Positions 24,495 to 63,054 of a stretch of DNA of 64,000 nucleotides are shown here, piece after piece. The stretch is taken from positions 85,669 to 149,668 of IMG/VR virus record IMGVR_UViG_3300005683_000050; one strand, 5' to 3'. Source of the stretch: a virus (Duplodnaviria > Heunggongvirae > Uroviricota > Caudoviricetes). The notes beneath the pieces were generated by a model, which saw only the letters and a list, made by a program, of their open reading frames with translations, had not been told where the DNA came from and searched no databases. A program made the position numbers and the translations under genes. The stretch's first letter is position 1; each line of letters begins with the position of its first letter.

Positions 24495-24535
24495 TATTTT
24501 TTGTATGTGAGGTTATTCATCAGATGATTATAACA

Positions 24536-24606
24536 AGCCCAAACTGAGAATCGAACTCAGGTTTTGTCCTTACCAAGAACGCGTCCTGCCACTAAACGAT
24601 TCGGGC
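24536..24606 (-). tRNA. tRNA-Thr(GGT), short D-loop
   Basis: acceptor GCCCGAA/TTTGGGC, T arm CTGAG-TTCGATT-CTCAG, anticodon loop TTGGTAA on a 4-bp stem with a 27-43 mismatch. Confidence 0.5.
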
Positions 24607-24612
24607 ATACAG

Positions 24613-24698
24613 AGGACGGGAAGAGAATCGAACTCTCAGAGCTTTTACACCCGCACGTTTAGCAAACGTGGTAGCACTACCAATATGCCAGCCCGTCC
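24613..24698 (-). tRNA. tRNA-Ser(GCT), type II
   Basis: acceptor GGACGGG/CCCGTCC, anticodon arm CACGT-TTGCTAA-ACGTG, long variable arm. Confidence 0.7.
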
Positions 24699-24854
24699 TT
24701 ATTGTTTACTTGCCTTTTCCAGTACTTGACGCTCAGACGCAGACGCCCTGCGCGTTTCTTCTCCATCCACAATGTACCATTCCTTGCCAATCTTGTACGC
24801 TTCGCCATTCTCAATCATTTCTTCGGCGCGTTTGTTTGATAAAGTCCTAGCCAT
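24699..24854 (-). CDS. small protein 51 aa
   Basis: ATG with GGAAGG SD; below ORF-track cutoff; stop abuts the tRNA-Ser 5' end. Confidence 0.3.
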   Translation of the reverse strand: MARTLSNKRAEEMIENGEAYKIGKEWYIVDGEETRRASASERQVLEKASKQ

Positions 24855-24951
24855 GCTTACCTTCCATAAAACTAGATATAAATTGTGTACTTCCGATAGT
24901 TAGTGCAATTGAATCTTGTCTGAGTTACCGATTTGAATAACGTATGTCATA

Positions 24952-25022
24952 CAGGGACAGAGGGACTTGAACCCCCAACAATTGTTTTGGAGACAAACAT
25001 TTTACCATTAAACTATATCCCT
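24952..25022 (-). tRNA. tRNA-Trp(CCA)
   Basis: anticodon loop CTCCAAA; acceptor AGGGATA/TGTCCCT; T loop TTCAAGT. Confidence 0.65.
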
Positions 25023-25059
25023 ATTTAGAGGCAGTCTTTGCCCTGCCTCACTCAAAGTA

Positions 25060-25088
25060 ATTATACCACACATCCATCCGCTTGTCAA
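25060..25088 (-). promoter_or_regulatory. sigma70-type promoter TTGACA-17-TATAAT
   Basis: upstream of tRNA-Trp; TGTGG precedes the -10. Confidence 0.6.
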
Positions 25089-25090
25089 GA

Positions 25091-25741
25091 TTACAACGGA
25101 TACGGATATTTTGTTTTCTTAATGTTGCGTACATTCAACGGACGCGGCTCGTCATCACCAGAAACAAGTCTCAAATAAATGGTTGTTTCATTTTCTGTGT
25201 CAACCTCAAATCTGGGAACAGAACTGAATACTTGACCGCTTTGACCACTTTGCCCGATTATGCCAGCAGACTTTGCCGTTGAAGACGATTGCGAAGAGGC
25301 ATATGTCGTATTATAAACAAAGTTCCCAGTTGACTGACTACGAAAATTTTCAATTACTGGCAATGGCATCGGATTGTAAACCTCTGGGGTGAATACGGCT
25401 TCAATCAATCCCCAATCTGACTTCGCCATGTATGCTTGCCCAGCGGCATACGCATCCTCAGTATACGATGTGTAGTACGTAAATCTTCCATTGCTATGTG
25501 CTGGACGCTCAATGCGTCCAGTCGTAAGCGCGTTAAGAGAAAACTCTCCAACAAGAAATCCATTCATCTTTAACCGCAAGGACGCTCGTCTGTTGTTTGA
25601 ATTCATTACGGTTACAGAGAATTTCTCGCCGTTTCTCATTACCACATACCCATCAGCATCATGCGTTTTTCCGCTTACGAGTAGCGTGTATCCATTAAGT
25701 TCCATTCTTGTTCCTTTCAACTGTTCTGTGGCAATTCGCAC
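25091..25741 (-). CDS. hypothetical protein 216 aa
   Basis: minus ORF. Confidence 0.35.
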   Translation of the reverse strand: MRIATEQLKGTRMELNGYTLLVSGKTHDADGYVVMRNGEKFSVTVMNSNNRRASLRLKMNGFLVGEFSLNALTTGRIERPAHSNGRFTYYTSYTEDAYAAGQAYMAKSDWGLIEAVFTPEVYNPMPLPVIENFRSQSTGNFVYNTTYASSQSSSTAKSAGIIGQSGQSGQVFSSVPRFEVDTENETTIYLRLVSGDDEPRPLNVRNIKKTKYPYPL

Positions 25742-26027
25742 ACAGAATTATGCACTTCCTTATTTCGTCAAAAATCAACTCTAGAGGCAATCCATTACCA
25801 ACCATCTCGGATACATTGCCTACTTTTTCCGATGGATTAAGGTGGTGAAAATCCAGCGACTCGGCAGCATCCCTAAATCCACAGCGCATACATCCGTACC
25901 TAATCTTGTATGTGTCAACGAATCTTTTTGACTCGATTCGCCTGTGATTTACCTTCGTTCTGATTTGAGACGGAGGGTCTGACAAACGCTCTCCAATCTC
26001 GAATAACTCTAAATCCCATCCATGCAA
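25695..26027 (-). CDS. HNH endonuclease
   Basis: CMRCGF...HHLNP...CANCH motif. Confidence 0.6.
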   Translation of the reverse strand: MHGWDLELFEIGERLSDPPSQIRTKVNHRRIESKRFVDTYKIRYGCMRCGFRDAAESLDFHHLNPSEKVGNVSEMVGNGLPLELIFDEIRKCIILCANCHRTVERNKNGT

Positions 26028-26386
26028 TAGGAAACCGCCTCAAAGACGAGAGACAATTCACCACCTGAATGGCGTCTCGCTGCTAACCCACCAGACGCTA
26101 TACTATCATACCCATTGGTAAATAAGTCTTCAAGCAGCTGTCTGGCAGTCTCTTTAATAGATTCTACCGATGGCGATTCATCTCCTAGCCATGTCCATCC
26201 GAAAGTTCGCATGAAAAAGTATACCTTTTGAAAATCAAAGTGAACCATAATCTCTTCTATGGCTTCTTCTTGTTTTTCAGTTATTTTGCCCATTATGCCC
26301 TCCATTTGGGTACTGCAAAAAGTGCGATGATTTATAACGGTTTGCGTTAGCGACTGGGCGTGACATTCACGCCACACTGCCAGCAA
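26009..26386 (-). CDS. hypothetical protein 125 aa
   Basis: minus ORF. Confidence 0.3.
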   Translation of the reverse strand: MLAVWRECHAQSLTQTVINHRTFCSTQMEGIMGKITEKQEEAIEEIMVHFDFQKVYFFMRTFGWTWLGDESPSVESIKETARQLLEDLFTNGYDSIASGGLAARRHSGGELSLVFEAVSYCMDGI

Positions 26387-26634
26387 TATAACTCGCCCTC
26401 AATTTCTCTTTTTTCGGGGTGCATACAAGCCCCCTGCACGCGTTGTTCGGCGGCAGCAAAGTCTTTCCAACCTACTCGCCAATCAGCGATTGCAAATATA
26501 TTTGTGCAACGGCAATCGGTTATCGGTTTACCTGCGGCTGCCGCTTTTATTCCAGATTTGTACGCTCTGGAAAATGTGTTTGTTGGAAGTTGGCCTAATG
26601 TTTGCATGGTAGCCGCCGAACGGTCATGCTTCAC
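26347..26634 (-). CDS. Cys-rich small protein 95 aa
   Basis: CRC...CMHPE...CWQCG cysteine pairs. Confidence 0.3.
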   Translation of the reverse strand: MKHDRSAATMQTLGQLPTNTFSRAYKSGIKAAAAGKPITDCRCTNIFAIADWRVGWKDFAAAEQRVQGACMHPEKREIEGELYCWQCGVNVTPSR

Positions 26635-26664
26635 TGGCGCGGCGATGCGGGCTCGCGGTTATAT

Positions 26665-26937
26665 TTATTCCGCCTCACGATTTACAAAAGCGCCTGGATG
26701 TGGATTGTCCTTCATCCACTGCTCATTATATTTACGAGCGGCTTCATAGCAATTTGGGCATACGCTTGTGCCAGTATTCCATGATGTCATAATAGAATTG
26801 TTTGACACCCCAGTTCTCCGTTCGTGACCGCCAAACTCTTGCCCGCAAAGTGGACACGAGAGCCAAAAATAGCCAGCGAAGTTTGCCCATAATTTATGTA
26901 ACCATCTTGGAATTTTCATGTTTACCTTTCTCGCCAC
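26665..26937 (-). CDS. zinc-ribbon protein 90 aa
   Basis: CPLCGQ...CPNCY. Confidence 0.3.
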   Translation of the reverse strand: MARKVNMKIPRWLHKLWANFAGYFWLSCPLCGQEFGGHERRTGVSNNSIMTSWNTGTSVCPNCYEAARKYNEQWMKDNPHPGAFVNREAE

Positions 26938-26967
26938 GTTTGCAAGGCGGCGGCATAACGGTTGGAT

Positions 26968-27399
26968 TCACTGGCGCGGCGATGCTGGCACAGTGATTTG
27001 GATAGAATTACCACAATGCGAGCAAGTCGCGCCCGCTGGCTCAGGCGTAGCCGCGTCCATGTGCAAGCGGTGCTGGGCGCGTTCTGCCCACCCTGAAACA
27101 TCATTACCACGCTCACACAAATAAACGGAGTAACTGGGAATTGAGCCATAGGCATATCGCCTTTCAAATTCGCTCACGGAACAAATGCCAACCTTGCCAT
27201 CTTTCGGAACTTCGCAGGGCGGGTTGCACTCCATGAAAGTAACTCGGTTGCCTTCTCGCCCTATGACATAGACATAAAAGGAAAACATTTCCGTAAACCT
27301 ATCGCCTGGCTGCGGGTCGTTCATTGCCTCAGCTGTTTCTGCCTGTGTTTTTTTGGTATCGAACATAAGACCTTTCACGGACGCGGAATAAGCGTCCAA
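26968..27399 (-). CDS. hypothetical Cys-containing protein 143 aa
   Basis: minus ORF; CEVPKDGKVGIC...CSHCGN. Confidence 0.3.
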   Translation of the reverse strand: MDAYSASVKGLMFDTKKTQAETAEAMNDPQPGDRFTEMFSFYVYVIGREGNRVTFMECNPPCEVPKDGKVGICSVSEFERRYAYGSIPSYSVYLCERGNDVSGWAERAQHRLHMDAATPEPAGATCSHCGNSIQITVPASPRQ

Positions 27400-27474
27400 C
27401 TGTCCGTATCAAGTATTTGATTGTCCATTTTAATCTCCCCGATTATGTTTTTATTACCACTCCCTGTAGTAATT

Positions 27475-27708
27475 CTAAATGTGGTCGCCAAGAGCGCCAT
27501 GTGAACTTATAAACACATCGAAGTCTTCAACCACCTCGCGCGTTATAAGGTCAAGAACTCTCACCTGACTCGTATTTAATTTCGAGTAATAAAATTCACG
27601 TACCGAAAAAAGAATCTGAATGTCTTCCTCGCTCATTGCGCGCAAGATTCTGTGAAGTTCCGCGCTTCCGCCGTGAAATATATAATTGTACGGATTGTTT
27701 ACGCTCAT
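27475..27708 (-). CDS. hypothetical protein 77 aa
   Basis: minus ORF. Confidence 0.3.
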   Translation of the reverse strand: MSVNNPYNYIFHGGSAELHRILRAMSEEDIQILFSVREFYYSKLNTSQVRVLDLITREVVEDFDVFISSHGALGDHI

Positions 27709-28698
27709 TTATTCAACCATTGAACGAATTATCTCCGCATGGTCTTCAAAGAAGTGACGCTCTAATCTTTCAACCTGAAATAATGGCATCCAAAAGGCGT
27801 CATCTCCACCGCGAATCTCTGGCAACTCCCGATTGTTTCCCATGTTAATGTAGTAGCACATTGTAAATGTCCTACCGCGCAAGCTCCTATATGGATAGTC
27901 GAACATTCTTTCCGAGCGTATCGAAGAAATCAGGTCTGCTTTTGAAATTCTAATCGCAGTTTCTTCTTTAAGCTCTCTAATTGCGGCGTCTCGCAAAGAC
28001 TCATCCGACTTTACAAATCCACCTGGCAGAGCGTACAGTCCCTTTCCAGGAAACCCTCCACGCTTTGTTATTAGAACGTGATTAGACGCGACTACAACAC
28101 AGTCTACCGTTACAAATGTCGGCGCATATGGAACAGACTTCCACAGCTCAGTGTATTTGTCAGCAAACAATTGTTCTTTGACCAATTCATTGTACTGCGC
28201 TGTTCTACAGAATCTTTCCATGAACATACAAGTCTGCTCTGGGACATAATCAATCCAATCCCTTTTTCCCCTGAAGTAATGTTCCCTAATAGTCGTTGCG
28301 TGTTTGGGAAAAATTTGACTGAAGTTTGGAGAGTCCACTTCCCACTGAGGAAAATAATCAAGGTAAGCAGAAGTTGAGTCAGACCTTGTTCCGACCAAAC
28401 AAACGTCTTCGTCGGAGAACCTGTCGTATACCGACCTAGATACCTCGTTAACCCATTTCGCATCGGAATACCAATAATCTCTCATGGGGAATGTGCGTAT
28501 ATTTGCATTTATAGCATGATTACTCATAATCATGCTCTCGCGAGACGAGAAATCCCAGGGGTTCTTGATGGTGGATGCGACATTGACACTGCCAATGCCA
28601 ATTGCTACTGTGTGGTAGCGGCTGAGGGCGTAATCAACAATTGCTTTGTGAGCAAGATGATACGGCTGAAACCTACCTAAGACTAATCCTATTTTCAT
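27709..28698 (-). CDS. bifunctional NMN adenylyltransferase / Nudix hydrolase (NatV/NadM-Nudix-like)
   Basis: N-terminal GRFQPYHLAHKAIV nucleotidyltransferase (H/T)xGH-type motif; C-terminal GGFVKSDESLRDAAIRELKEETAI Nudix box. Confidence 0.7.
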   Translation of the reverse strand: MKIGLVLGRFQPYHLAHKAIVDYALSRYHTVAIGIGSVNVASTIKNPWDFSSRESMIMSNHAINANIRTFPMRDYWYSDAKWVNEVSRSVYDRFSDEDVCLVGTRSDSTSAYLDYFPQWEVDSPNFSQIFPKHATTIREHYFRGKRDWIDYVPEQTCMFMERFCRTAQYNELVKEQLFADKYTELWKSVPYAPTFVTVDCVVVASNHVLITKRGGFPGKGLYALPGGFVKSDESLRDAAIRELKEETAIRISKADLISSIRSERMFDYPYRSLRGRTFTMCYYINMGNNRELPEIRGGDDAFWMPLFQVERLERHFFEDHAEIIRSMVE

Positions 28699-28728
28699 AT
28701 TTTCTCCCCGAAAATATATTTACAACAA

Positions 28729-28801
28729 TGGGCCCAGCAGGACTTGAACCCGCGACGCGCAGCTTATGAGACTGCCGTTCTAACCACTGAACTATAGGCC
28801 C
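28729..28801 (-). tRNA. tRNA-Met(CAT) (Met, fMet or Ile2)
   Basis: anticodon loop CTCATAA; acceptor GGGCCTA/TGGGCCC; D arm GTTC-AGTGGTTA-GAAC. Confidence 0.7.
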
Positions 28802-28889
28802 GACTTTATATGCCAGACAAAATAAAAATCTTTAACCGCCGAAAAACGAGTGGTGAAAAAGAATCGTCCCAACTGAATCCGTGAAAGCA

Positions 28890-28918
28890 TTATAACATAA
28901 AGTTATCAGTTTGTCAAC
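28890..28918 (-). promoter_or_regulatory. sigma70-type promoter TTGACA-17-TATAAT
   Basis: upstream of tRNA-Met and the NMNAT-Nudix gene. Confidence 0.6.
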
Positions 28919-29259
28919 ATGTTTGATTCTATAACCAATATAATCGCAACACACACATTTTTGTGAATAGCAGATTTTGTAAACATATCCGCTCTCCACA
29001 TACCATCAGTTCTTGGTGTTAGCGAAACACCGAAATACATTGCCAGACGCAAGGCGTCTGATATGGACTGGTCGAATTGAACGGGCATCCATTCTTGGAT
29101 GTCGTCATGCTCGTACAGGTGAGCGACATACCAATTTCCACCTTCTGAAAATATCGGGCTACCACCCATGTACGCAGAAAAGGTTGTAATCCACTCATCG
29201 GGAAACTCTAAAGGCTTAGGTTCTCCCATTATTGCAGCCAGAGAATCATTACTTAACAT
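28906..29259 (-). CDS. hypothetical protein 117 aa
   Basis: minus ORF. Confidence 0.3.
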   Translation of the reverse strand: MLSNDSLAAIMGEPKPLEFPDEWITTFSAYMGGSPIFSEGGNWYVAHLYEHDDIQEWMPVQFDQSISDALRLAMYFGVSLTPRTDGMWRADMFTKSAIHKNVCVAIILVIESNMLTN

Positions 29260-29872
29260 TTGCAGCCCCTATTCCAGCTAGTCTATCGCACTCTTCATTC
29301 ATTGGATTTCCATTATGCCCACGCACCCATACTGGAATGATTGTTTTCCCCCGCATTGCAAAATCCATAGATTGCAACTCTTTGGCGTTCACAATTGGCT
29401 TTCCCTTTTTCGCCCACCTCATACGTTTGTACTCAGACATATTAAGAATTGCCGAGACACAATACATCGAGTCTGTGAATAAGTACGCCTTGCCCCATTC
29501 TGGAACTAGTCCGATTGCGGCAATGCAGGACGCAATTTCCATCTTGTTGTTAGTTGTATCTAAAGCTCCGCCGTTTACAGATATAAATGAATCACCAAAG
29601 ATAGATATAGCGGCGTATCCACCTCGACCGTCCGCATAATTCCCAGACCCGTCCGCGAACAATACCCTCTCCCCGCTATTTACTAAGGATGTATAGTCAA
29701 CATCGCTATCTGAAAGAAATTGTCCCGTATTCATATACGCCATCGCTTCGTCTTTTGAGATAAACGATTTGAACATAGCACTTGGGAATCCGTAAACTTG
29801 GTGCTTGGCTTCTTCCCAACTATCGTAAATGCCTGGAACTTTCCCGTTCTTAACTGCGTATACCTTTCCCAT
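29249..29872 (-). CDS. RNase H (type I) with N-terminal extension
   Basis: FADGSGNYADGRGGYAAI and VWVRGHNGNPMNEECDRLAG catalytic motifs. Confidence 0.7.
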   Translation of the reverse strand: MGKVYAVKNGKVPGIYDSWEEAKHQVYGFPSAMFKSFISKDEAMAYMNTGQFLSDSDVDYTSLVNSGERVLFADGSGNYADGRGGYAAISIFGDSFISVNGGALDTTNNKMEIASCIAAIGLVPEWGKAYLFTDSMYCVSAILNMSEYKRMRWAKKGKPIVNAKELQSMDFAMRGKTIIPVWVRGHNGNPMNEECDRLAGIGAANVK

Positions 29873-30371
29873 CTATCTTCATCCTGTGACGGACATCTCC
29901 TGGCTTAATCATTGTCAGCTTGTCGTCCCGACCATTTCTTGTATACACGTTGTACAATGCATGGTAAGGACTTTTCACATAACTCATTTTATTTTTAATA
30001 GAATTTATGAATCTGATAATCTCAGAGCGTTCGACCACGACGAATTCACCGTCTGCGCTTTCAAATGCGATGAAATCGGCATGTCCACCAAACAACCACC
30101 CACGAGTATTGTTTACTCCACGCAACTCTATCCAAAGATTGTTTGTGTACGCTCCGCCGCGCGCAACCCGCTTGCGAGCCTTGACATCTACGGAAAATGT
30201 TTGTCCATCTTTAGATATAAAACAGTCTATGTGTTTTTTGTAGTCCTCTTCACGTGTGGAGTTACGCACCTCCCACCCACAGACCGACGCCATATTTTTG
30301 AATCTAACAAATGCGTCTTGTCCCATCTTGCTAGAGTTATTAGAATCGTATGGGCTAATGTACCCGTTCAT
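29850..30371 (-). CDS. hypothetical protein 173 aa (possible PD-(D/E)xK fold)
   Basis: IDCFISKDGQTFSVDVKARKR resembles a D...D/ExK core. Confidence 0.3.
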   Translation of the reverse strand: MNGYISPYDSNNSSKMGQDAFVRFKNMASVCGWEVRNSTREEDYKKHIDCFISKDGQTFSVDVKARKRVARGGAYTNNLWIELRGVNNTRGWLFGGHADFIAFESADGEFVVVERSEIIRFINSIKNKMSYVKSPYHALYNVYTRNGRDDKLTMIKPGDVRHRMKIDGKGIRS

Positions 30372-30799
30372 ATTTTTGAGTACTGAGACACTGCGTCTTC
30401 ACAGGCAGTATGAATCGCCATCGGAAGATGTGTGTGTGTGGACGTTACGTTAATTGGAATTTCCTGTGTAATGTCAATCGGGAATGGAGTTCCGTTTGCC
30501 ATAATTGACACCGACCACTGTCCATCATAAAATTCAATCCGAATATCAGAAAATCTTCCGAGAATTCTCATTGTTGAAAGCAAATTTCGGTATGCAGTAG
30601 GCATATCGGAATCACTGTTCATCGGAAACAGGGCAGCTCTCTGATTTCTTATGTCATTACCAACAACATCTCGGAGTGACTGAAATAACCCAGACACGTC
30701 ATCTGGTGTTAATTCATTCCAATTGAGGTGTTCCTGATTTCTCATAACGCCAATTACAGCAGATACAATACTATCAATGTTTATCATAATTATCTCCAT
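30368..30799 (-). CDS. hypothetical protein 143 aa
   Basis: minus ORF. Confidence 0.3.
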   Translation of the reverse strand: MEIIMINIDSIVSAVIGVMRNQEHLNWNELTPDDVSGLFQSLRDVVGNDIRNQRAALFPMNSDSDMPTAYRNLLSTMRILGRFSDIRIEFYDGQWSVSIMANGTPFPIDITQEIPINVTSTHTHLPMAIHTACEDAVSQYSKI

Positions 30800-56790: not shown

Positions 56791-57223
56791 CCTGATTCAC
56801 ATCCTCTGGATTGACATACCAACGACCCACTACGTAGTCTGCATAGTCAACCGTCCGCAACTGATAATATATCTTCGACTGCGGATAACCGCGCGCACAC
56901 ATCCAGCGATACTTCATATTTGGTCTAAGGTCGCGCGCGAACTTTGGAAAAAGCGAGTCCTCTATCACCGAGCAAAGCTCAAGATATGCTCCATAGTCAC
57001 CAACGACTACGCGACTGCCTATTTCCGCTATCTTTGTTTTTCCTATATAAAATGGGGATTGTAAATCGAGTTTTGGAACGTGGTCTGCGTAGTATCTCCT
57101 TATGACCCAGCTCTCATGGGGAGGTAACGGCTTGTAGAAAAACTTATTGCCCTTTAATGTCCTGTCTCGAATTTTTGACAATAAATACTCGACATCTGGG
57201 TTAAAAAGAGAAGATTGGGACAT
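56762..57223 (-). CDS. hypothetical protein (ATG start at 57223; the track's upstream GTG lies inside a terminator)
   Basis: minus ORF. Confidence 0.3.
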   Translation of the reverse strand: MSQSSLFNPDVEYLLSKIRDRTLKGNKFFYKPLPPHESWVIRRYYADHVPKLDLQSPFYIGKTKIAEIGSRVVVGDYGAYLELCSVIEDSLFPKFARDLRPNMKYRWMCARGYPQSKIYYQLRTVDYADYVVGRWYVNPEDVNQDGVETLPGV

Positions 57224-57249
57224 AAAAAATCTCGCCACTAAAGGCGAGA
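57223..57249 (-). terminator. rho-independent terminator
   Basis: ATCTCGCC-actaa-GGCGAGAT followed by T6 on the minus strand, 5 nt after the tRNA-His 3' end. Confidence 0.6.
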
Positions 57250-57254
57250 TAAGG

Positions 57255-57327
57255 GGTGAAAGACGGGTATCGAACCCGCTATCTCATAGTTCACAGCTAT
57301 GCGGCTCGCCTTCTGCCTCCTATCACC
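57255..57327 (-). tRNA. tRNA-His(GTG) with genome-encoded G-1
   Basis: 5' GGTGATAG (G-1 opposite discriminator C73); anticodon arm CATAG-CTGTGAA-CTATG. Confidence 0.75.
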
Positions 57328-57461
57328 ATGTTGAATTATCATGCTCGCTCGGTATTTTATGTCTGTAAGGGTACGTATCATCGCCCAAAGATACTGCTTG
57401 TCAGAGATACGCATTCTGGAACGAGCTGCGGCTGTAATAGTATTCACCATGATAATTCAGT

Positions 57462-57534
57462 CGGGATGGAAGGATTTGAACCTTCAACTTCTTGTATCCA
57501 AAACAAGTACTCTGCCGAATTGAGTCACACCCCG
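57462..57534 (-). tRNA. tRNA-Pro(TGG)
   Basis: C1:G72; anticodon arm CTTGT-TTTGGAT-ACAAG. Confidence 0.7.
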
Positions 57535-57544
57535 ATTACAAAAA

Positions 57545-57573
57545 CATTATACCACAAAACTATTCCCTTGTCA
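57545..57573 (-). promoter_or_regulatory. sigma70-type promoter TTGACA-17-TATAAT
   Basis: TTGTGG before the -10; upstream of tRNA-Pro/His. Confidence 0.6.
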
Positions 57574-57852
57574 AGGTATACGAGATAGAGATTTCAGTGC
57601 CAGAATTCTAACCTGCAAATCTTCTTTTTCTGCTTTAGACGCTGTTTTTATTTGTTCACACAACTCTGCCAGCCTATCCACAAACATCTCTTTTGACTTT
57701 TTTCGAGCTACCCTATTCCCCTGCTCAAGATTTTCTTCTTGCCACATCCTGAAAGCTGTGTTAACCGACTCGTCACTTTCTGTATCTATACGAATCTTTA
57801 TCGTCTTTCCCCACGGAAAAACAAGACCATCCTTCTGCATGTCCCTATCCAT
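57571..57852 (-). CDS. hypothetical protein 93 aa
   Basis: minus ORF. Confidence 0.3.
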   Translation of the reverse strand: MDRDMQKDGLVFPWGKTIKIRIDTESDESVNTAFRMWQEENLEQGNRVARKKSKEMFVDRLAELCEQIKTASKAEKEDLQVRILALKSLSRIP

Positions 57853-58198
57853 CAGTCCAAGTTTTTTGTCTTTGTGACCACTGCCACATCAACATCAACA
57901 ATGTCTTTTTTAATCCTTGCCAAATAACACCTTCAGTAATAATGGAATTCCGTGCCATATCAGAGCAGATGCAATTGCAAATAAAATTACCGCGAAAAAA
58001 CCAGCGAAAAATCCCCAAAAGAACTTTTCGCTAACAAAGTACATCGCCAGCGGCACTACAGTTACAATCAATAACAGAGAAGCTGCGTATACCTTTTCGT
58101 TAAACACTAACCGCCTTGCATTCAAAATCACCGACTTAATATACATTGAATCTCCAAGATTCATAATATGTACTTTATATACAGTATGCCACAAATAG

Positions 58199-58272
58199 TC
58201 AGGGCGACTGGATTTGAACCAGCGACCTCTTGTATCCCGAACAAGCACGCTACCGAACTGCGCCACGCCCTG
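58199..58272 (-). tRNA. tRNA-Pro(GGG)
   Basis: C1:G72 acceptor CAGGGCG/CGCCCTG; anticodon loop TCGGGAT. Confidence 0.65.
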
Positions 58273-58361
58273 TCACATTAACCGCAATGAAAGATATGCG
58301 GAAATAAGAATCAATGCCGTTGCGGTTAATGATTCCAATAAAAAAAGAATGTTTTTTAGCA

Positions 58362-58568
58362 TTACTTTTTATACAAGTCGCCAAGCGGCATTACTGTTTC
58401 AGACCTGCTAATGCAGTATTCTTTTCCGTCAAGTCCAACTTTCCACAATGAATACCCAAGTTCCTTACAGGTAGACTCGACAGCAAACATTCTGACGACA
58501 AAAACAATCAAAAAGAGCGACAGTATAACTGCCAGTGTCCATAGCACATATATTTTTGTTTTATACAT
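58362..58568 (-). CDS. small membrane protein 68 aa
   Basis: N-terminal TM helix. Confidence 0.25.
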   Translation of the reverse strand: MYKTKIYVLWTLAVILSLFLIVFVVRMFAVESTCKELGYSLWKVGLDGKEYCISRSETVMPLGDLYKK

Positions 58569-58569
58569 A

Positions 58570-58643
58570 CGTCCCAGAGCGGACTTGAACCGCTAACCTT
58601 TTCCTCCGCAGGGAAAAACTCTATCCAATTGAGCTACTAGGAC
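58570..58643 (-). tRNA. tRNA-Arg(GCG)
   Basis: anticodon arm TTTCC-CTGCGGA-GGAAA; D arm GCTC/GAGT. Confidence 0.6.
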
Positions 58644-58787
58644 AAAATGCCTCGCAATTTTAGCCGCATGAGGCGATGGCGTACCACGTCCTACGACTTA
58701 GTACCTCGTTACATAGACGAGACTTTCGCTCTGGTCTTTCACTGGACGTAGATTAATTACTTGACCAAGTATGTACTCAACGTCATC

Positions 58788-58816
58788 ATTGTATCACAAA
58801 ATCATGGATTTGTCAA
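58788..58816 (-). promoter_or_regulatory. sigma70-type promoter TTGACA-17-TACAAT
   Basis: TTGTGA extended -10; about 145-nt leader to tRNA-Arg(GCG). Confidence 0.6.
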
Positions 58817-59301
58817 CCAGACAACATCTCTTGAATCTCAAGCAATGCGGCGGTGTTTCCACCAGCGCGACTTAGTAGGTTCACAATGTCCAGCAGCTCT
58901 TTCTCGGACGTGCGTTGTTCTTCTAAGTACGGCTTCATAAAGTTGAATGCGTCAATGTCGCCAACGTCCCAACACAGCTTTGTCAAAGACACTATACGTT
59001 GTGTGTTTGCTTTTTCTAGATTGAGAGCGTTTTGAAATGCAGCCAACGGTTCTTTTACGATGTATCCGACAGCCGTATCCAGAGCATTCAATTCTGGAAT
59101 CTGATTTCTAGCAATCAAAAAGTTAGCAAACCCACATGCGTGTTCAGTTTCTTCTTCGGAAGATTTTTTCAGAAACTTGGCAAACCCGTCCCACGGAGCC
59201 ATCTCCATCGCATACGACATTTGAAGATAAGCTCTTGAATTTGCGTGTTCCGCGCAGAATTGTTCTACAAAAGCTTGGCGCAGTAATTCGTCTAATAGCA
59301 T
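58813..59301 (-). CDS. ferritin-like diiron protein
   Basis: paired ExxH motifs (CAEHANS..., EEETEHACGF) in a four-helix-bundle-like sequence. Confidence 0.45.
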   Translation of the reverse strand: MLLDELLRQAFVEQFCAEHANSRAYLQMSYAMEMAPWDGFAKFLKKSSEEETEHACGFANFLIARNQIPELNALDTAVGYIVKEPLAAFQNALNLEKANTQRIVSLTKLCWDVGDIDAFNFMKPYLEEQRTSEKELLDIVNLLSRAGGNTAALLEIQEMLSG

Positions 59302-59355
59302 AATTTACCACCTTTCGGTAAAAATTATACCACAAACGAATTACTGCGCCGACAG

Positions 59356-60354
59356 TTATTCGTCCTCGTTCTCGTCAACCGTCTTGTCTTTCAGTAGGTA
59401 CGAGTCTGAAATGTACTTTAGAATTACCCTACCAATCTTTGGGTCTCTACGCTCTTGAACGGGTCGGATAACAACACCCTCTCGGATATTGTCTCCTATT
59501 GTGCTTTTTCCATTTGCCAGACTCTTGACCTCTTCAATGGAAAACGGCATTACTCGCAAAACTGGAACAAGCTGAGCGTCATGTCTGTGCGCCAGAACAA
59601 TCATCTCCGTAAAATCAAGGTAATTCCCATCAACCATAATGTCGAATATCCTGAATCCGACACCATCTCTAACGTCGTAGGAAAATCCCTTTTGTACCTT
59701 CGCGCCGTAAATCTCTCCAAACAAAATAACGTGTTTGTGGGATTCCGAGAGAGAACCCAAAAGACTCTGTACCCAGTCTAGTTCAAATGGCATCCAGTAG
59801 ACATTGTTGCCTTCTTTGCGTCTGAGATTGTGGCTGCCAGCCATCCTCTCGCCGTCTATGTATGCCACGCGAGCATTTGTTCCGTGAATTTTCTCGGTAA
59901 CACAAACGCTCTCGCCCTCTGAAATAACTTGCGGGAAATTTCTTAGATTCTCAATGTCAGTGTATTTCAGGAATCGCGCGTCGTCAGTTTCGGTATCCCC
60001 ACCACTTAGGCGTAACGGAGATATATACTTGGTGCATCCGTAAAGGTCTGCCAGATTGTCTCCAACCTGAGAACCTGAAGGAGCAATTTGTACAAATCCA
60101 AACGAAGGCTCTCCGCGCAATGCTACAGCACGGACGCGTTGTTTGCTCAGGTATGGCGTAACTCCCATCTCATCAGAAACGCTTTGCGGCAAAACCGTAT
60201 CTGGCGGAAAATACACAACCTTATCTCCGACATTCAAAGTTCCCTTTTTGACAACAACCTGCCATCCAAGAATGTTTATAATTTCCAATCTGTCCGCGCT
60301 GGGATGAACCATTATTTCCGAGACTTCGACAACTGGAACTATTAGTGTTGACAT
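59356..60354 (-). CDS. ATP-dependent RNA ligase (Rnl family)
   Basis: nucleotidyltransferase motif I VTEKIHGTNARV (KxHGxN, typical of RNA rather than DNA ligases); 332 aa. Confidence 0.65.
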   Translation of the reverse strand: MSTLIVPVVEVSEIMVHPSADRLEIINILGWQVVVKKGTLNVGDKVVYFPPDTVLPQSVSDEMGVTPYLSKQRVRAVALRGEPSFGFVQIAPSGSQVGDNLADLYGCTKYISPLRLSGGDTETDDARFLKYTDIENLRNFPQVISEGESVCVTEKIHGTNARVAYIDGERMAGSHNLRRKEGNNVYWMPFELDWVQSLLGSLSESHKHVILFGEIYGAKVQKGFSYDVRDGVGFRIFDIMVDGNYLDFTEMIVLAHRHDAQLVPVLRVMPFSIEEVKSLANGKSTIGDNIREGVVIRPVQERRDPKIGRVILKYISDSYLLKDKTVDENEDE

Positions 60355-60785
60355 TATAATGACAATGGCGTTTGCACAACAACGTTAGTCTCTCCGAACG
60401 ATTCCCAATTCGTCCTCGGTGATACCGTCGTTACAATCGCCCCTTTCTCTACGCTACTTGTCGGAATACCCTTGATTGCATCCTTTGGTTTCCCTCTATT
60501 GAAAACCTCTGTGCGGTAGTAGTAACCAATGAATTCAATTCCAGATTCTAATCGGTCATAAACGACCAAATAATCTGCCTCTGAATACGCAGAAATATCC
60601 ATCAATGGGATTTTAACAGAACCCTCAAAGAACGAAAACCTTGCTTCCCCAGAAACAAATGGGATAATCCGAGATTCAGAGATTTTTCCAATACGCCTCG
60701 CGGTTCTCCATAAACATTTCTGAAAAATAACAGCCACAAGATTCGTGGCTGTGTCGGACTCAACTTTTGTTACGTTCCCGAACAT
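60354..60785 (-). CDS. hypothetical protein 143 aa
   Basis: minus ORF. Confidence 0.3.
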   Translation of the reverse strand: MFGNVTKVESDTATNLVAVIFQKCLWRTARRIGKISESRIIPFVSGEARFSFFEGSVKIPLMDISAYSEADYLVVYDRLESGIEFIGYYYRTEVFNRGKPKDAIKGIPTSSVEKGAIVTTVSPRTNWESFGETNVVVQTPLSL

Positions 60786-60928
60786 GGAGAGCTCCCTTGA
60801 TATTTACAACATTGAATCCAGCTTGCGCCAGCTCTTTATGTAGGGCTTTAATGTCTGTGTCGGCATCGCCACGCACAACCAAATACCCACCAGATATCTC
60901 AAGCGCGTCCACAATTTTTTGCGCGTCA

Positions 60929-61291
60929 CTACTCAATGATAATTCGTTCGCCATTTTGTTTATTCACAACCTGAATGAGTTTTTTCGTAACCCGAATATC
61001 CATACATTCCGCCAAGTGAACACCACTTTCTGCAAAGTGTTTTCTAAGACGACCAATCGCATGGTTCTCTATTTGGTCACATCGCTGACGAGAAAGACCA
61101 GTAGCCACGCTTACCTGAGACAACGACATCGGACGAGACCCAATGTCAAGTCCTACACGATAACCAAAAACCCTGAAATCATTGTCGGAAAGAGACTCGA
61201 TTGCTCGGATAATGTCTGATTTATCAGTTGTATCTGGAGTCCCAATCACCGCATTAAATAAATTAAAAGTTGTATTGTTCATTATCTCCAT
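60929..61291 (-). CDS. small sigma-70 region-4 (HTH) protein; transcription regulator or minimal sigma-like factor
   Basis: MSLSQVSVATGLSRQRCDQIENHAIGRLRKH matches the sigma70 region 4.2 HTH pattern; only 120 aa. Confidence 0.45.
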   Translation of the reverse strand: MEIMNNTTFNLFNAVIGTPDTTDKSDIIRAIESLSDNDFRVFGYRVGLDIGSRPMSLSQVSVATGLSRQRCDQIENHAIGRLRKHFAESGVHLAECMDIRVTKKLIQVVNKQNGERIIIE

Positions 61292-61299
61292 CCCTTGTT

Positions 61300-61328
61300 A
61301 TTTTACCATAAAAGACAACTATTGTCAA
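61300..61328 (-). promoter_or_regulatory. sigma70-type promoter TTGACA-17-TAAAAT
   Basis: drives the sigma-r4 gene; embedded in the palindrome TGTCAAGTTGACA. Confidence 0.5.
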
Positions 61329-61344
61329 GTTGACAAAATACGAT

Positions 61345-61560
61345 TCACAATAGATTCTCAAAATCATTTATGATGGAAGCTAGTTGCTCTGGCGGAAGAC
61401 CGACCATCTCGGAAATTTTCTGCATGGTTTGGATGTCTGGTTTCTCCACATACCTGAGAACGCCATATATTCCGAAAAGAATCATGGTTGCCTCTGGATG
61501 TTTTACATGTTCTATTTTTTCTAATAACTCAAATAAATTTTCCATATTTTTTACCTCCAC
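61345..61560 (-). CDS. hypothetical protein 71 aa
   Basis: minus ORF. Confidence 0.25.
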   Translation of the reverse strand: MEVKNMENLFELLEKIEHVKHPEATMILFGIYGVLRYVEKPDIQTMQKISEMVGLPPEQLASIINDFENLL

Positions 61561-61666
61561 TGGGAACGGGGTACTCGAAACCCAAGCAGATTATCAATCC
61601 GCTCCAACCGATTTCCAGTCGGTGACTGCTCGCCTGTCAGTTTCATTCCCAAAGAATTTACTGCCA

Positions 61667-61936
61667 TCAAATAAACGGATGGTAGTAAATTAATGCGGCA
61701 ACTAGCATAATGACAACAGATAAAATACCCATCCGTTTCATCATCTTCACAACGCGCTTCGCAAATGAATTGTCTAGTGACTTATGTCCCTTTGTGGACA
61801 CATAAACGCCCCCCTTAGCATTTGACACAGTGAAGCTTTCTGCGTCGTGCTGTACAAAACTCGCAATCCCATTACTTTCTGCTTGTTCCGCTATTTCTCT
61901 TAATTCTTTGAACGTCTTTGGGTTTTGCTTTGGCAT
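61667..61936 (-). CDS. small protein with C-terminal TM helix 89 aa
   Basis: minus ORF. Confidence 0.3.
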   Translation of the reverse strand: MPKQNPKTFKELREIAEQAESNGIASFVQHDAESFTVSNAKGGVYVSTKGHKSLDNSFAKRVVKMMKRMGILSVVIMLVAALIYYHPFI

Positions 61937-62090
61937 TCTTTTTTACCTCTTGGGTATCTTCTGTCCAACTTGCATCCGTAACTGTCGAATTTCCACCCTC
62001 TTCAATCAAGACAATAATCTGTAACATCAATCGAGACATAGCCTCTTCGTCCATATTGCTTTTTACGTGAAAATCAAACACTGCGTTCAT
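61872..62090 (-). CDS. hypothetical protein 72 aa
   Basis: minus ORF overlapping its neighbour. Confidence 0.25.
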   Translation of the reverse strand: MNAVFDFHVKSNMDEEAMSRLMLQIIVLIEEGGNSTVTDASWTEDTQEVKKNAKAKPKDVQRIKRNSGTSRK

Positions 62091-62818
62091 TCAATCTCTC
62101 CGAGAGATAGTCTGTCGGAATAGAGAGCCTTTTGACATTGCACATAAGACCGTCTCACAACTATTCCGCCATCGCTACCAGATATTTCTCTTGTAACTGG
62201 CTTAAAGTAAATTCCGCGCTTAGAATGCGCTGAACATTCGTCCCAATGTATGCCCCTTTCCAAAAGCGCATCAACTACTGCGCTCGAACATTTCCCTTGC
62301 ATTTCTCTTTGGGTAAACACAGACCTTCCGAGCATTGAAACAGAATTGCGTATTGCGTCCAATTCTCGCCACACCATATAATTACGCACTTCGTTCTCGT
62401 TTGGCAGAGAGAATATCCTACCATCAAAACATGGATATTGGTTTTTTGGAACTTTGTTTTCCAAAATCTTTTTTTCATCTCGGCTAAATATAGCTGTAGC
62501 CAGAGATGCCAATGAGGTAATAATCTTTGACGCCCTACCCCCAAAGTACTGTACTGTTGAATCCGAGAACCACGCAAGAGAAATCTCATCACTCTGAGTA
62601 TATGCAATGTCAGCTCTCGATTCTACACATAAAGCGAGAGTAATATCCAGCATCATGGACTGCATTCTTTTGTCAAATGGCTTGTCCATATTTCTCGTGA
62701 ATCTGCTGAAATTCCTACCATCCAAACGAACAACAGTTGCAGTATACGGAGAAGCGGAGTATCCAATTCCTTCGTATATGCTCATTCGTTCAGGCAGGGA
62801 AACATTCATTTTTTGCAT
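62087..62818 (-). CDS. Thg1-like protein (tRNA-His guanylyltransferase / 3'-5' RNA polymerase family)
   Basis: VVRLDGRNFSRF, AYTQSDEISLAWF and CFDGRIFSLP match the Thg1 catalytic motifs (RxDGxxF, SDEIS, FDGR). Confidence 0.8.
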   Translation of the reverse strand: MQKMNVSLPERMSIYEGIGYSASPYTATVVRLDGRNFSRFTRNMDKPFDKRMQSMMLDITLALCVESRADIAYTQSDEISLAWFSDSTVQYFGGRASKIITSLASLATAIFSRDEKKILENKVPKNQYPCFDGRIFSLPNENEVRNYMVWRELDAIRNSVSMLGRSVFTQREMQGKCSSAVVDALLERGIHWDECSAHSKRGIYFKPVTREISGSDGGIVVRRSYVQCQKALYSDRLSLGEIE

Positions 62819-63054
62819 TCTTCTCCGTATAGAAATCCAGAATAAAAAACAATTTCGCCCTCTGATGGTCTAACCAGGTCAACCGCAAATTGACCTAAAG
62901 ACAACCTGACAAGGTTTCCAGATTTATACAACTTAAACGTAGACATAACCGTTTTCATTGTACTGTCGCTATAAGTATGAAATTCAAAGTCCGTACTTCC
63001 CTTTCCGAGAGCGATTCTTAGAGAAGCCATGAGCGATTTAGGCAGATAAATCAT
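62806..63054 (-). CDS. hypothetical protein 82 aa
   Basis: minus ORF. Confidence 0.25.
   Translation of the reverse strand: MIYLPKSLMASLRIALGKGSTDFEFHTYSDSTMKTVMSTFKLYKSGNLVRLSLGQFAVDLVRPSEGEIVFYSGFLYGEECKK

What the first reader, a model, noticed from the sequence alone, without database searches (positions are those of the whole stretch)
24500..62820. tRNA array of ~40 genes co-resident with three RNA-end repair enzymes (RtcB, Rnl-type ligase, Thg1-like): a candidate anti-defence tRNA maintenance island
Hand-folding gives about 40 minus-strand tRNAs covering 19 amino acids (no Cys). These include three CAT tRNAs, complete Leu and Pro isoacceptor sets, and identity elements intact: G3:U70 in all Ala tRNAs, C1:G72 in all Pro tRNAs, and G-1 in His. 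The same block holds RtcB (31319-32533), which seals 2',3'-cyclic-P and 5'-OH ends, and an Rnl-family ligase (59356-60354), which seals 3'-OH and 5'-P ends. It also holds a Thg1-like enzyme (62087-62818) that rebuilds tRNA 5' ends. Together these cover both chemistries left by anticodon nucleases (PrrC/RloC/colicin-type versus VapC/other). Such breadth has not, as far as I know, been described as one module. It suggests the phage both replaces and repairs host tRNAs cut by defence systems.
Basis: partly seen in the sequence, partly recalled or inferred. Interest (0 to 1): 0.8.

Follow-up and report, generated by a model that had tools for sequence, protein, structure and literature searches.

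The report
Phage tRNA region with mini RNase P
A ~150 kb phage carries 45 tRNA genes and three intact RNA-repair enzymes, a combination already known from giant phages, but next to one of those enzymes it also encodes a 198-nt stripped-down RNase P RNA, for which I found no published report in any virus.

Summary
ARAGORN finds 45 minus-strand tRNAs for 19 amino acids; Rfam supports 42. RtcB, an Rnl5-type nick-sealing ligase and a bacterial-type Thg1-like enzyme all have intact catalytic motifs.

The genes are scattered over 38 kb among unrelated genes. No Pnkp or CCA-adding enzyme is present. The same trio occurs in the cultured Caulobacter phage CcrColossus, and the idea of tRNAs plus several ligases plus Thg1 was published for jumbo phages in 2021.

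The new element lies at 30798-30995 (-), in a 199-nt gap just downstream of rtcB. It is a 198-nt RNA with the RNase P catalytic core: CR-I, CR-IV, CR-V, and P4 with the bulged U. It has helices P1-P6 and P15-P17, but one hairpin replaces the specificity domain. About 20 homologues occur in viral contigs, including a published 642 kb huge phage. Most sit inside tRNA arrays on the tRNA strand. Covariation is strong. A model built without the window sequence recovers it at 98 bits. Rfam scores it below threshold, so routine annotation misses it.

The best reading is a phage-encoded minimal RNase P ribozyme that matures the phage's own tRNAs. Its catalytic function is inferred, not shown.

The parts
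24536..61651 (-). Loose array of 45 tRNA genes (19 amino-acid specificities). None encodes CCA.
   Evidence: ARAGORN. Rfam tRNA model at or above gathering score for 39, plus 3 sub-threshold. Acceptor stems and identity elements. Spacing.
30798..30995 (-). 198-nt minimal RNase P-like RNA. It has the catalytic domain (P1-P6, P15-P17, CR-I/IV/V). The specificity domain is reduced to one hairpin, and P18 is absent.
   Evidence: Rfam RNaseP_arch 51.5 bits, E 1.4e-13, full model span, below the gathering score of 84. Leave-one-out covariance model: 98 bits, E 5.5e-21. Helix coordinates. Lies in a gap left by the source contig's gene calls.
30950..30962 (-). CR-I / J3-4 (AGGAAA) and the P4 5' strand AAC[U]CAGCC with the universally conserved bulged U.
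   Evidence: P4 pairs 8/8 with 30811-30818. Compensatory changes across the family.
30811..30843 (-). CR-IV (AGAUAGAU), P2 3' strand, CR-V/J2-4 (ACAAAA) and P4 3' strand (GGCUGGUU).
30907..30936 (-). Stub hairpin (P7 position) that replaces the whole specificity domain. Its loop nucleotides GGAG...UCGUU...AC are conserved.
   Evidence: (helix 4: 90.5% paired, 4 of 5 pairs with double changes).
30850..30855 (-). GGU-containing internal loop between P15 and P16. In bacterial RNase P RNA this is the site that binds the tRNA 3'-CCA.
   Evidence: Conserved GGU columns in A2 and A3. Position. The assigned role comes from established knowledge of type-A RNase P RNA.
31319..32533 (-). RtcB RNA ligase (3'-P or 2',3'-cyclic-P joined to 5'-OH). 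The source contig's gene call starts at 32524.
   Evidence: Pfam PF01139, E 4.8e-60. Metal ligands and GMP-histidine conserved against P. horikoshii RtcB. Gene call P0001.
32542..32570 (-). Perfect extended sigma-70 promoter (TTGACA-17-TG-TATAAT) upstream of rtcB. No terminator-like site lies between it and the RNA.
   Evidence: This is a consensus match only.
30987..31271 (-). 94-aa ORF of unknown function between rtcB and the RNA. Its last codons overlap the P1 5' strand.
   Evidence: Gene call. No Pfam match. No homologue in relative L338.
30368..30787 (-). 139-aa ORF of unknown function. It starts 11 nt after the RNA's 3' end.
   Evidence: Gene call. No Pfam match. No homologue in relative L338.
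59356..60354 (-). Rnl5-type ATP-dependent RNA ligase: N-terminal OB domain plus nucleotidyltransferase domain.
   Evidence: Pfam PF09414 and PF21189. Full-length match to Naegleria gruberi RNA ligase 5cot. Motifs I EKIHGTN, III GEIYG, IV EGVVIR, V LKYIS.
62087..62818 (-). Bacterial-type Thg1-like protein (3'-5' nucleotidyltransferase).
   Evidence: Pfam PF04446, E 1.2e-28. Best solved relative is B. thuringiensis TLP 4kgk, E 6.4e-26. Catalytic D and DE conserved.
57253..57326 (-). tRNA-His(GTG) with genome-encoded G-1 and C73.

Best explanation
The window comes from a ~150 kb tailed phage. Its early/middle region is a largely self-contained kit for supplying, maturing and repairing tRNAs.

Shown:
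- 45 tRNA genes are present, 42 supported by two methods.
- An intact RtcB, an intact Rnl5-type ligase and an intact bacterial-type Thg1-like enzyme are present.
- A 198-nt RNA at 30798-30995 (-) belongs to a conserved, strongly covarying family found in phage contigs.
- This RNA has the universal RNase P catalytic core and the helices of a bacterial type-A catalytic domain.
- It lacks the specificity domain and P18.

Inferred:
- The RNA is transcribed with rtcB from the consensus promoter at 32570-32542 and excised from that transcript.
- It acts as an RNase P ribozyme, probably bound to the host's RnpA protein, since no phage RnpA was found.
- It removes 5' leaders from the phage's own pre-tRNAs. 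This would add processing capacity, or relax substrate requirements, for a large set of often non-canonical phage tRNAs.
- Host enzymes would trim the 3' ends and add CCA, because no tRNA gene encodes CCA.
- RtcB would reseal breaks with cyclic-phosphate and 5'-OH ends. The Rnl5 ligase would seal 3'-OH/5'-P nicks in base-paired regions. The Thg1-like enzyme would rebuild damaged 5' ends by templated 3'-5' addition.

The likely benefit is sustained translation during infection, including when host defences or host shut-off deplete or cut tRNAs.
For: tRNAs and identity elements.

Enzymes and catalytic residues.

Phage identity: terminase, portal, protease and capsid lie on the same contig. The source contig is 149,834 bp.

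RNA evidence:
- Rfam hit over the full RNase P model, E 1.4e-13.
- P4 pairs 8/8 with the bulged U; CR-I, CR-IV and CR-V are present.
- 18 IMG/VR loci plus 2 MAG fragments were found with a descriptor that used only CR-I/IV/V. Their P4 scores are bimodal, 8/8 versus chance.
- 15 of the 18 IMG/VR loci have tRNAs in the DNA held, on the same strand as the RNA, and most have a tRNA within about 15 nt of it.
- P2 pairs 7/7 in 16 of 19 sequences, using 15 different sequences. P3 hairpins carry tetraloop caps.
- Official covariation count: 92.8% of cells paired against 34-44% for slid controls. 27 of 32 pairs show double changes. 0 of 500 shuffles reach the observed values. The six helices not used for selection are 86-98% paired.
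- The leave-one-out model hits the window at 98 bits, with the next best at 9.8 bits. It gives no hits in 1.03 Mb of other viral DNA.
- A further member lies in the published 642 kb phage LR756502.1, at 119 bits, with a covarying variant P4.

Plausibility: a catalytic domain alone is catalytically competent, though less efficient (PMC5839562 abstract).
Against: - No experiment or expression data exist. Catalysis is inferred from conservation.
- The Rfam score is below the curated threshold (51.5 against 84).
- The closest relative of this phage (RtcB 64% identical) lacks the RNA in the corresponding slot, so the RNA is not fixed next to rtcB.
- Three family members have no tRNA in the flank held, and LR756502.1 has none within 8 kb.
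- The RNA keeps the CCA-binding GGU although the phage tRNA genes lack CCA.
- No phage RnpA was found, so reliance on the host protein is an assumption.
- The three repair enzymes do not co-occur with the RNA in 179 kb of other loci. The kit is therefore an assemblage, not a co-inherited module.
- The host is unknown, so neither codon nor defence arguments can be tested.
Confidence: 0.68

Rival explanations
1. The region is a dedicated anti-defence island whose parts act together. Spare tRNAs replace host tRNAs cut by anticodon nucleases, and RtcB, the ATP-dependent ligase and Thg1-like enzyme together repair both kinds of break.
For: All three enzymes are catalytically intact. tRNA-targeting defences and phage tRNA counter-measures are documented (PMC10264068, PMC11555353, PMC13096335). 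Four tRNAs carry C33 instead of U33, including one of two Lys-UUU copies, which fits loop variants that evade nucleases. A weak RlaP-type 'RNA repair' nucleotidyltransferase lies just outside the window.
Against: The genes are dispersed among unrelated genes over 38 kb. No Pnkp end-healing enzyme was found, and the ligase is the nick-sealing Rnl5 type. The trio is not linked in other loci. The concept and the same trio are already known. The host and its defences are unknown. This view does not account for the RNase P-like RNA.
Confidence: 0.35
2. Translation capacity or codon supply only. The tRNAs, and the RNase P RNA that processes them, serve to match phage codon usage and keep translation running after host transcription is shut off. 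The ligases serve general RNA housekeeping, with no link to defence.
For: The set is nearly complete: 19 amino acids in the window plus a GCA tRNA just outside it. This looks like wholesale replacement rather than a few targeted decoys. The neighbours are nucleotide-metabolism and replication genes typical of a take-over region. Codon compensation is the classical explanation (PMC10264068 abstract).
Against: It cannot be tested without the host. It does not explain three distinct RNA-end repair enzymes. It is not exclusive of the defence reading.
Confidence: 0.4
3. The RNase P-like RNA is not a working ribozyme. It is a decoy that sequesters host RnpA or competes with host RNase P, or it serves as a processing or regulatory element in tRNA transcripts.
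For: The specificity domain is missing. No phage protein subunit was found. It is embedded in polycistronic tRNA contexts.
Against: The nucleotides conserved across the family are exactly the catalytic-core ones: CR-I, CR-IV, CR-V, the bulged U and the GGU loop. A phage with 45 tRNA genes needs more RNase P activity, not less. Catalytic-domain-only RNAs are active in vitro.
Confidence: 0.1
4. The RNase P-like match is a chance resemblance or a decaying fragment of a captured host rnpB gene.
For: It scores below Rfam's gathering threshold. It is absent from the closest relative.
Against: E 1.4e-13 against Rfam. About 20 homologues keep every helix through compensatory changes. The leave-one-out model gives 98 bits with no false positives in over 1 Mb. 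The RNA fits exactly into an intergenic gap.
Confidence: 0.02

Closest known systems
Bacterial type-A RNase P RNA (Rfam RF00010; E. coli M1 RNA), catalytic domain
   Same: CR-I, CR-IV and CR-V. P4 with the bulged U. P1, P2, P3, P5, P15, P16 and P17. The P6 pseudoknot between J5/7 and L17. The GGU loop. All are supported by covariation.
   Different: It is about 198 nt rather than about 350-400 nt. The whole specificity domain (P7-P14, CR-II/III) is replaced by one 5-bp hairpin, and P18 is absent. It is encoded by a phage, usually inside a tRNA array. It scores below the Rfam thresholds (30-52 bits).
Type T minimal RNase P RNA of Thermoproteaceae (Pyrobaculum; Lai et al. 2010, cited in PMC3579882, PMC13462272 and PMC8172020)
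   Same: A natural RNase P RNA of about 200 nt that has lost most of the specificity domain but keeps the catalytic domain.
   Different: Type T is archaeal and cellular, and works with archaeal proteins. The phage RNA has bacterial type-A features (P6 pseudoknot, P16/P17, GGU loop). The loss is most likely independent and convergent.
Diverged or reduced RNase P RNAs of CPR/Patescibacteria (Lui et al. 2021, PMC8172020)
   Same: They fall below the Rfam thresholds and lack several helices. I found 206-224-nt cellular examples (L259, L311, L318, L280, L303).
   Different: Those are chromosomal, with the canonical GUCCGG P4 and no tRNA-array context. They score only 33-41 bits on the phage-family model, against 98 or more for phage members.
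Jumbo-phage RNA repair repertoires (Iyer et al. 2021, PMC7824862); for example Caulobacter phage CcrColossus and Burkholderia phages BcepSaruman and BcepSauron
   Same: Large tRNA sets together with RtcB, ATP-dependent RNA ligases and Thg1, read as repair of nuclease-cut tRNAs. CcrColossus has RtcB, an Rnl5-type ligase and Thg1.
   Different: This phage is about 150 kb, below the usual 200 kb jumbo threshold. It shares at most 43% RtcB identity with any sequenced phage. It additionally carries the RNase P-like RNA, which that review does not mention.
Phage T4 Pnkp-Rnl1 repair of PrrC-cleaved tRNA-Lys
   Same: The logic is the same: a phage enzyme reseals a tRNA that a host nuclease has cut.
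   Different: No Pnkp or Rnl1 is present here. RtcB does healing and sealing in one enzyme. The ATP-dependent ligase is Rnl5-type.

Membership tests
RNase P RNA (clan CL00002) | Universally conserved core sequences CR-I (GAGGAAA), CR-IV (AGNNNNAU) and CR-V (ACANAA...UUA) | tested here: met
   These positions are invariant across 19 family members.
RNase P RNA (clan CL00002) | P4 long-range helix between CR-I and CR-V with a bulged U | tested here: met
   AAC[U]CAGCC/GGCUGGUU pairs 8/8. Five of 8 pairs covary. Note that P4 pairing was also the selection filter. LR756502.1, found independently by blastn, has a variant covarying P4.
RNase P RNA (clan CL00002) | Catalytic-domain helices P1, P2, P3, P5 and P15 supported by covariation | tested here: met
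RNase P RNA (clan CL00002) | Specificity domain (P7-P12 with CR-II/CR-III) | tested here: not met
   Only a roughly 30-nt hairpin lies between the P5 strands.
RNase P RNA (clan CL00002) | Score at or above the gathering threshold of a curated Rfam RNase P family | tested here: not met
   51.5 bits against a gathering score of 84 for RF00373. E is still 1.4e-13.
RNase P RNA (clan CL00002) | Site-specific 5' leader cleavage of pre-tRNA | not testable with these tools
   Needs in vitro cleavage or rnpB complementation.
Phage mini RNase P-like RNA family (defined here, model R1) | Full-length match to a covariance model built without the window sequence | tested here: met
   98 bits, E 5.5e-21, model positions 1-177. 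Zero hits in 1.03 Mb of control viral DNA.
Type T RNase P RNA (Thermoproteaceae) | Archaeal-type catalytic domain and best match to the type-T model | tested here: inconclusive
   Rfam's clan competition kept RNaseP_arch or bact_a as the best match, and the type-T score was not shown. The P6/P16/P17 features are of the bacterial type.
RtcB ligase (PF01139) | Domain match above threshold. Asp/Cys/His metal ligands and the GMP-binding histidine. | tested here: met
Rnl5-type RNA ligase (NgrRnl/DraRnl) | N-terminal OB domain followed by a nucleotidyltransferase domain with motifs I, III, IV and V. No C-terminal Rnl1/Rnl2 domain. | tested here: met
Rnl5-type RNA ligase (NgrRnl/DraRnl) | Seals 3'-OH/5'-P nicks in duplex RNA | not testable with these tools
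   A biochemical property.
Bacterial Thg1-like protein (TLP) | Thg1 palm domain above threshold, catalytic carboxylates, and closer to bacterial TLP than to eukaryotic Thg1 | tested here: met
   (4kgk at 6.4e-26 against human THG1 at 3.6e-14).
T4-type heal-and-seal tRNA repair (Pnkp + Rnl1) | A polynucleotide kinase-phosphatase end-healing enzyme | tested here: not met
   No Pnkp among the ORFs scanned with Pfam: 61 window ORFs, covering most ORFs of at least 96 aa in the block.
Phage tRNAs as nuclease-resistant replacements (van den Berg et al. 2023) | Anticodon-loop differences from the host's cognate tRNAs at nuclease recognition positions | not testable with these tools
   The host is unknown. 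The only observation is that 4 of 45 tRNAs have C33.

The most novel reading that the evidence does not exclude
Phages encode their own RNase P ribozyme. It would be a distinct, minimal structural class (type-A catalytic domain plus a P7 stub, about 180-225 nt) that travels with phage tRNA arrays. It would be the first viral RNase P and a natural 'catalytic-domain-only' enzyme. It may have relaxed substrate recognition suited to aberrant phage pre-tRNAs. It may also work together with the Thg1-like enzyme, which could restore 5' nucleotides after imprecise cleavage, for example G-1 of tRNA-His opposite C73.
Probability: 0.5. Interest if true: 0.88.

Novelty: new variant of a known kind. Interest (0 to 1): 0.72.

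Why it matters
RNase P RNA is one of the few universal ribozymes, and it has been treated as a strictly cellular (and organellar) gene. A virus-encoded version would extend the known viral take-over of translation, which already includes tRNAs, tmRNA, synthetases and ribosomal proteins, to tRNA maturation itself.

It would also provide a natural minimal RNase P. That would allow study of what the specificity domain is for, how a catalytic domain alone selects its cleavage site, and whether it borrows the host protein subunit.

Because standard Rfam thresholds miss it, it is probably widespread but unannotated. It is present in a published 642 kb phage genome that carries no annotation.

By contrast, the tRNA-plus-three-enzymes observation adds another, divergent example to an already described pattern.

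Tried and rejected
- Near-DNA search of the region against 50,697 phage records: no match. This phage has no sequenced close relative.
- Exact-sequence scan for the window's CR-I/P4 in IMG/VR: nothing. This led me to degenerate descriptors instead.
- RtcB- and TerL-based relatives in IMG/VR (87 loci, 1.03 Mb): none carries the RNA. RtcB neighbourhoods in general do not hold it.
- Closest relative (L338/L339, RtcB 64% identical): the RNA and its two flanking ORFs are absent from the syntenic slot. I rejected the idea of a conserved rtcB-RNA operon.
- Co-occurrence of the repair trio with the RNA in other loci: not seen.
- Search for a phage RnpA, CCA-adding enzyme, Pnkp or archease by Pfam on 61 window ORFs and 5 ORFs beyond the edge, plus a crude tblastn and motif screen using RnpA sequences recalled from memory: none found. 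There was only a weak RlaP hit outside the window.
- Single-sequence folding of the RNA: z-score -0.83, uninformative. The MFE fold does not recover the pseudoknotted native fold.
- MAFFT could not align the variable-length P1-P3. I analysed those helices per sequence instead.
- blastn of four family members against the phage collection to find a cultured carrier: only the uncultured LR756502.1.
- Literature: eight searches for a phage or viral RNase P RNA found none. The library omits most subscription journals.
- The metagenome-contig scan was not used.

Full report
WHAT THE WINDOW IS

The window is part of a tailed phage genome. Large terminase (14434-16824), portal (13121-14443), prohead protease (8314-9474) and major capsid protein (6206-7225) lie upstream of the flagged block, on the same minus strand. 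GC content is about 43% throughout, with uniform skew. The source is a 149,834-bp contig, ENA ERZ761584 NODE_4. An identical 14-kb piece occurs in SRR2106649. No sequenced phage is close: there is no megablast match, and the best phage RtcB is 43% identical.

CHECK OF THE OBSERVATION

ARAGORN finds 45 tRNA genes, all on the minus strand, from 24536 to 61651. Rfam's tRNA model supports 39 at gathering score and three more below it. Three calls are ARAGORN-only and doubtful: Ala-TGC at 37056, Arg-TCT at 49220 and Ser-GGA at 61560.

The set covers 19 amino acids. It includes three CAT tRNAs, five Leu anticodons and three Pro anticodons. All four Ala tRNAs have G3:U70, all three Pro tRNAs have C1:G72, and tRNA-His has an encoded G-1 opposite C73. 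The absence of Cys is an edge effect: a tRNA with anticodon GCA lies about 230 nt past position 64000 on the source contig, on the opposite strand.

None of the 45 genes encodes CCA. The array is loose, with a median spacing of 310 nt.

- RtcB keeps the Asp/Cys/His metal ligands and the GMP-histidine.
- The ligase matches the Naegleria gruberi Rnl5 ligase over its full length. It has an N-terminal OB domain and motifs I, III, IV and V.
- The Thg1-like protein is closest to the Bacillus thuringiensis TLP and keeps the catalytic carboxylates.

WHAT ELSE IS IN THE BLOCK

The block is not a compact module. Between the tRNAs lie many unrelated genes:
- an NMNAT-Nudix fusion and RNase H;
- an SPFH protein and two DNA methylases;
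- SSB, a SAM methyltransferase, class II RNR and ThyX;
- a SLOG protein, a ferritin/Dps-like protein and a sigma-70 region-4 protein;
- several HNH endonucleases and many small unknown ORFs.

Pfam detects no CCA-adding enzyme, Pnkp, archease or RnpA. I scanned 61 window ORFs, which covers most ORFs of at least 96 aa in the block, plus 5 ORFs beyond the window edge. Just outside the window there is a weak RlaP-family nucleotidyltransferase hit.

THE UNEXPECTED ELEMENT

A permissive Rfam scan gave a full-model match to RNase P RNA at 30799-30994 (-). It scores 51.5 bits with E about 1e-13, below the curated threshold of 84.

The RNA fills a 199-nt gap that the source contig's own gene calls leave between a 94-aa ORF downstream of rtcB and a 139-aa ORF.

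It contains:
- CR-I (GAGGAAAC), CR-IV (AGAUAGAU) and CR-V (ACAAAAGGCUGGUUAUC);
- P4, formed as AAC[U]CAGCC/GGCUGGUU with the conserved bulged U;
- P1 (10 bp), P2 (7 bp) and a P3 hairpin;
- P5, P15, P16, P17 and a P6-type pseudoknot, UUGCUC/GAGCAA.

Between the two P5 strands, where the specificity domain should be, there is only a 30-nt hairpin. P18 is absent.

IS IT REAL?

I scanned IMG/VR with a descriptor that used only CR-I, CR-V and, in a second scan, CR-IV, with short spacing. P4 complementarity among the hits is bimodal: perfect 8/8, or at chance. Eighteen loci have a perfect P4, on contigs up to 416 kb.

In 15 of these 18 loci the DNA held contains tRNAs. These are essentially all on the same strand as the RNA, and most loci have a tRNA within about 15 nt of it. 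Several loci also carry tmRNAs. That context was not part of the search.

Every member forms P1, P2 and P3 with different sequences.

On a 19-sequence alignment:
- 92.8% of cells pair, against 34-44% when partners are slid;
- 27 of 32 pairs show double compensatory changes;
- none of 500 shuffles reaches the observed values;
- the six helices not used for selection are 86-98% paired.

A covariance model built from the 18 non-window sequences finds the window RNA over its full length at 98 bits (E 5.5e-21). The next best hit in the window scores 9.8 bits. The model gives no hits in 1.03 Mb of other viral DNA and rejects the chance descriptor matches.

A further member was found by blastn in LR756502.1, an unannotated 642-kb "uncultured phage" record. 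It scores 119 bits and has a different, covarying P4. The family is therefore wider than my descriptor could reach.

RELATION TO CELLULAR FORMS

The same descriptor applied to GTDB genomes found two tiny MAG fragments of the phage type, with abutting tRNAs. It also found a few 206-224-nt RNase P RNAs in Patescibacteria, an Acidimicrobiia MAG and a Bryobacterales MAG. These have the canonical GUCCGG P4 and no tRNA neighbours. They score only 33-41 bits on the phage model. Reduced RNase P RNAs in CPR bacteria have been described before (PMC8172020); phage ones are not described there.

LIMITS

- The closest relative of this phage (RtcB 64%, SPFH 71% identical) has unrelated small ORFs in the slot where the window has orf94, the RNA and orf139. 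The RNA therefore sits in a variable slot and is not fixed next to rtcB.
- The three repair enzymes are not found near the RNA in other loci.
- A perfect sigma-70 promoter precedes rtcB, and no terminator intervenes before the RNA. Co-transcription is plausible but not shown.
- No phage RnpA was found. Use of the host protein is an assumption.
- There are no expression or activity data.

COMPARISON WITH WHAT IS KNOWN

The pattern of tRNAs plus RtcB plus an ATP-dependent ligase plus Thg1 is published for jumbo phages (PMC7824862). All three enzymes occur in the cultured Caulobacter phage CcrColossus. Thg1-like genes occur in 160 phage records, Rnl5-type ligases in 196, and RtcB in more than 500.

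The RNase P-like RNA is different. Eight full-text searches found no report of a phage- or virus-encoded RNase P RNA, and the jumbo-phage review does not mention RNase P. In architecture, its closest analogues are the type-A catalytic domain and, by convergence, the minimal type-T RNA of Pyrobaculum. Catalytic domains alone are known to be active, though less efficient (PMC5839562).

VERDICT

The region is best described as a phage kit for tRNA supply, maturation and repair. Its remarkable component is a minimal RNase P-like RNA that belongs to a phage family I could not find described. I put homology to RNase P RNA at about 0.9 and function as a tRNA-processing ribozyme at about 0.65. An anti-defence purpose for the whole region is plausible but untested.

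Noticed in passing
window 14434-16824 (-): The large terminase (796 aa) carries a LAGLIDADG homing-endonuclease domain at residues ~270-355, between its ATPase segments. Relatives match only residues 415-786. This is most likely an intein.
   Followed up: partly
L340 8513-8588 (-), equivalent to ~64231-64306 just beyond the window's right edge, on the window's + strand: A tRNA with anticodon GCA (Cys) on the opposite strand from all the other tRNAs. Rfam scores it best with the tRNA-Sec model (54.6 bits). It folds with a 9-bp acceptor and 4-bp T stem, a selenocysteine-like architecture.
   Followed up: partly
L340 6545-7324 (-), about 1.5-2.3 kb beyond the window edge: A 259-aa protein with a weak match to RlaP (PF10127, 'RNA repair pathway' Pol-beta nucleotidyltransferase; E 1.3e-4, just under cutoff). 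It lies in a reversed cassette with an HNH gene and the GCA tRNA.
   Followed up: no
window 27709-28698 (-): A fusion of a cytidylyltransferase-like (NMNAT-type) domain with a NUDIX domain. This is the architecture of phage NAD+ salvage enzymes and could bear on NAD-depleting defences. That link is from my own knowledge and was not tested.
   Followed up: no
window, all 45 tRNA genes: No tRNA gene encodes CCA. Most have N73 followed by C-U. Maturation must therefore rely on 3' trimming plus a CCA-adding enzyme that the window does not encode, although the mini RNase P RNA keeps the CCA-binding GGU loop.
   Followed up: partly
window 40379-40454, 41879-41953, 48596-48668, 58198-58272 (-): By ARAGORN's loop assignment, four tRNAs (Val-TAC, one of two Lys-TTT, Glu-CTC, Pro-GGG) have C33 instead of the near-universal U33.
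   Followed up: no
window 49220-49308 (-): The ARAGORN-only 89-nt 'tRNA-Arg(TCT)' begins with a tandem duplication, GGGGTAGTACT twice. It may be a damaged or unusual gene.
   Followed up: no
window 49858-50004 (-): tRNA-Arg(TCG) and a CAT tRNA with a U1-U72 mismatch abut with zero spacer. A single RNase P cut would create both the 3' end of one and the 5' end of the other.
   Followed up: no
window 18004-18450, 25695-26027, 45317-45649, 56422-56790 (-): HNH-type endonuclease genes are scattered through the region and among the tRNAs. This suggests homing-endonuclease-driven mosaicism.
   Followed up: no
L259 2049-2254, L318 2258-2463, L311 7756-7963, L280 2631-2854, L303 7179-7395: Very short (206-224 nt) RNase P RNAs in cellular MAGs: Ca. 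Shapirobacteria, Patescibacteria, Acidimicrobiia UBA4744 and Bryobacterales. They reach Rfam thresholds but appear to lack most of the specificity domain. Compare the diverged CPR forms in PMC8172020.
   Followed up: partly
L192 4924-4996 (+): A contig that carries the mini RNase P RNA also encodes a tRNA with anticodon CUA (an amber suppressor, which ARAGORN labels 'Pyl'). This hints at stop-codon recoding in that phage.
   Followed up: no
L197 1534-1901, L195 2543-2928, L093 929-1353: tmRNA genes lie in the same tRNA arrays that hold the mini RNase P RNA. tmRNA 5' maturation also needs RNase P.
   Followed up: no
window 32817-33728 (-) and L338 3260-4192: An SPFH/Band-7 protein sits immediately upstream of rtcB. 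It is 71% identical and syntenic in the relative, the best-conserved neighbour of rtcB.
   Followed up: no
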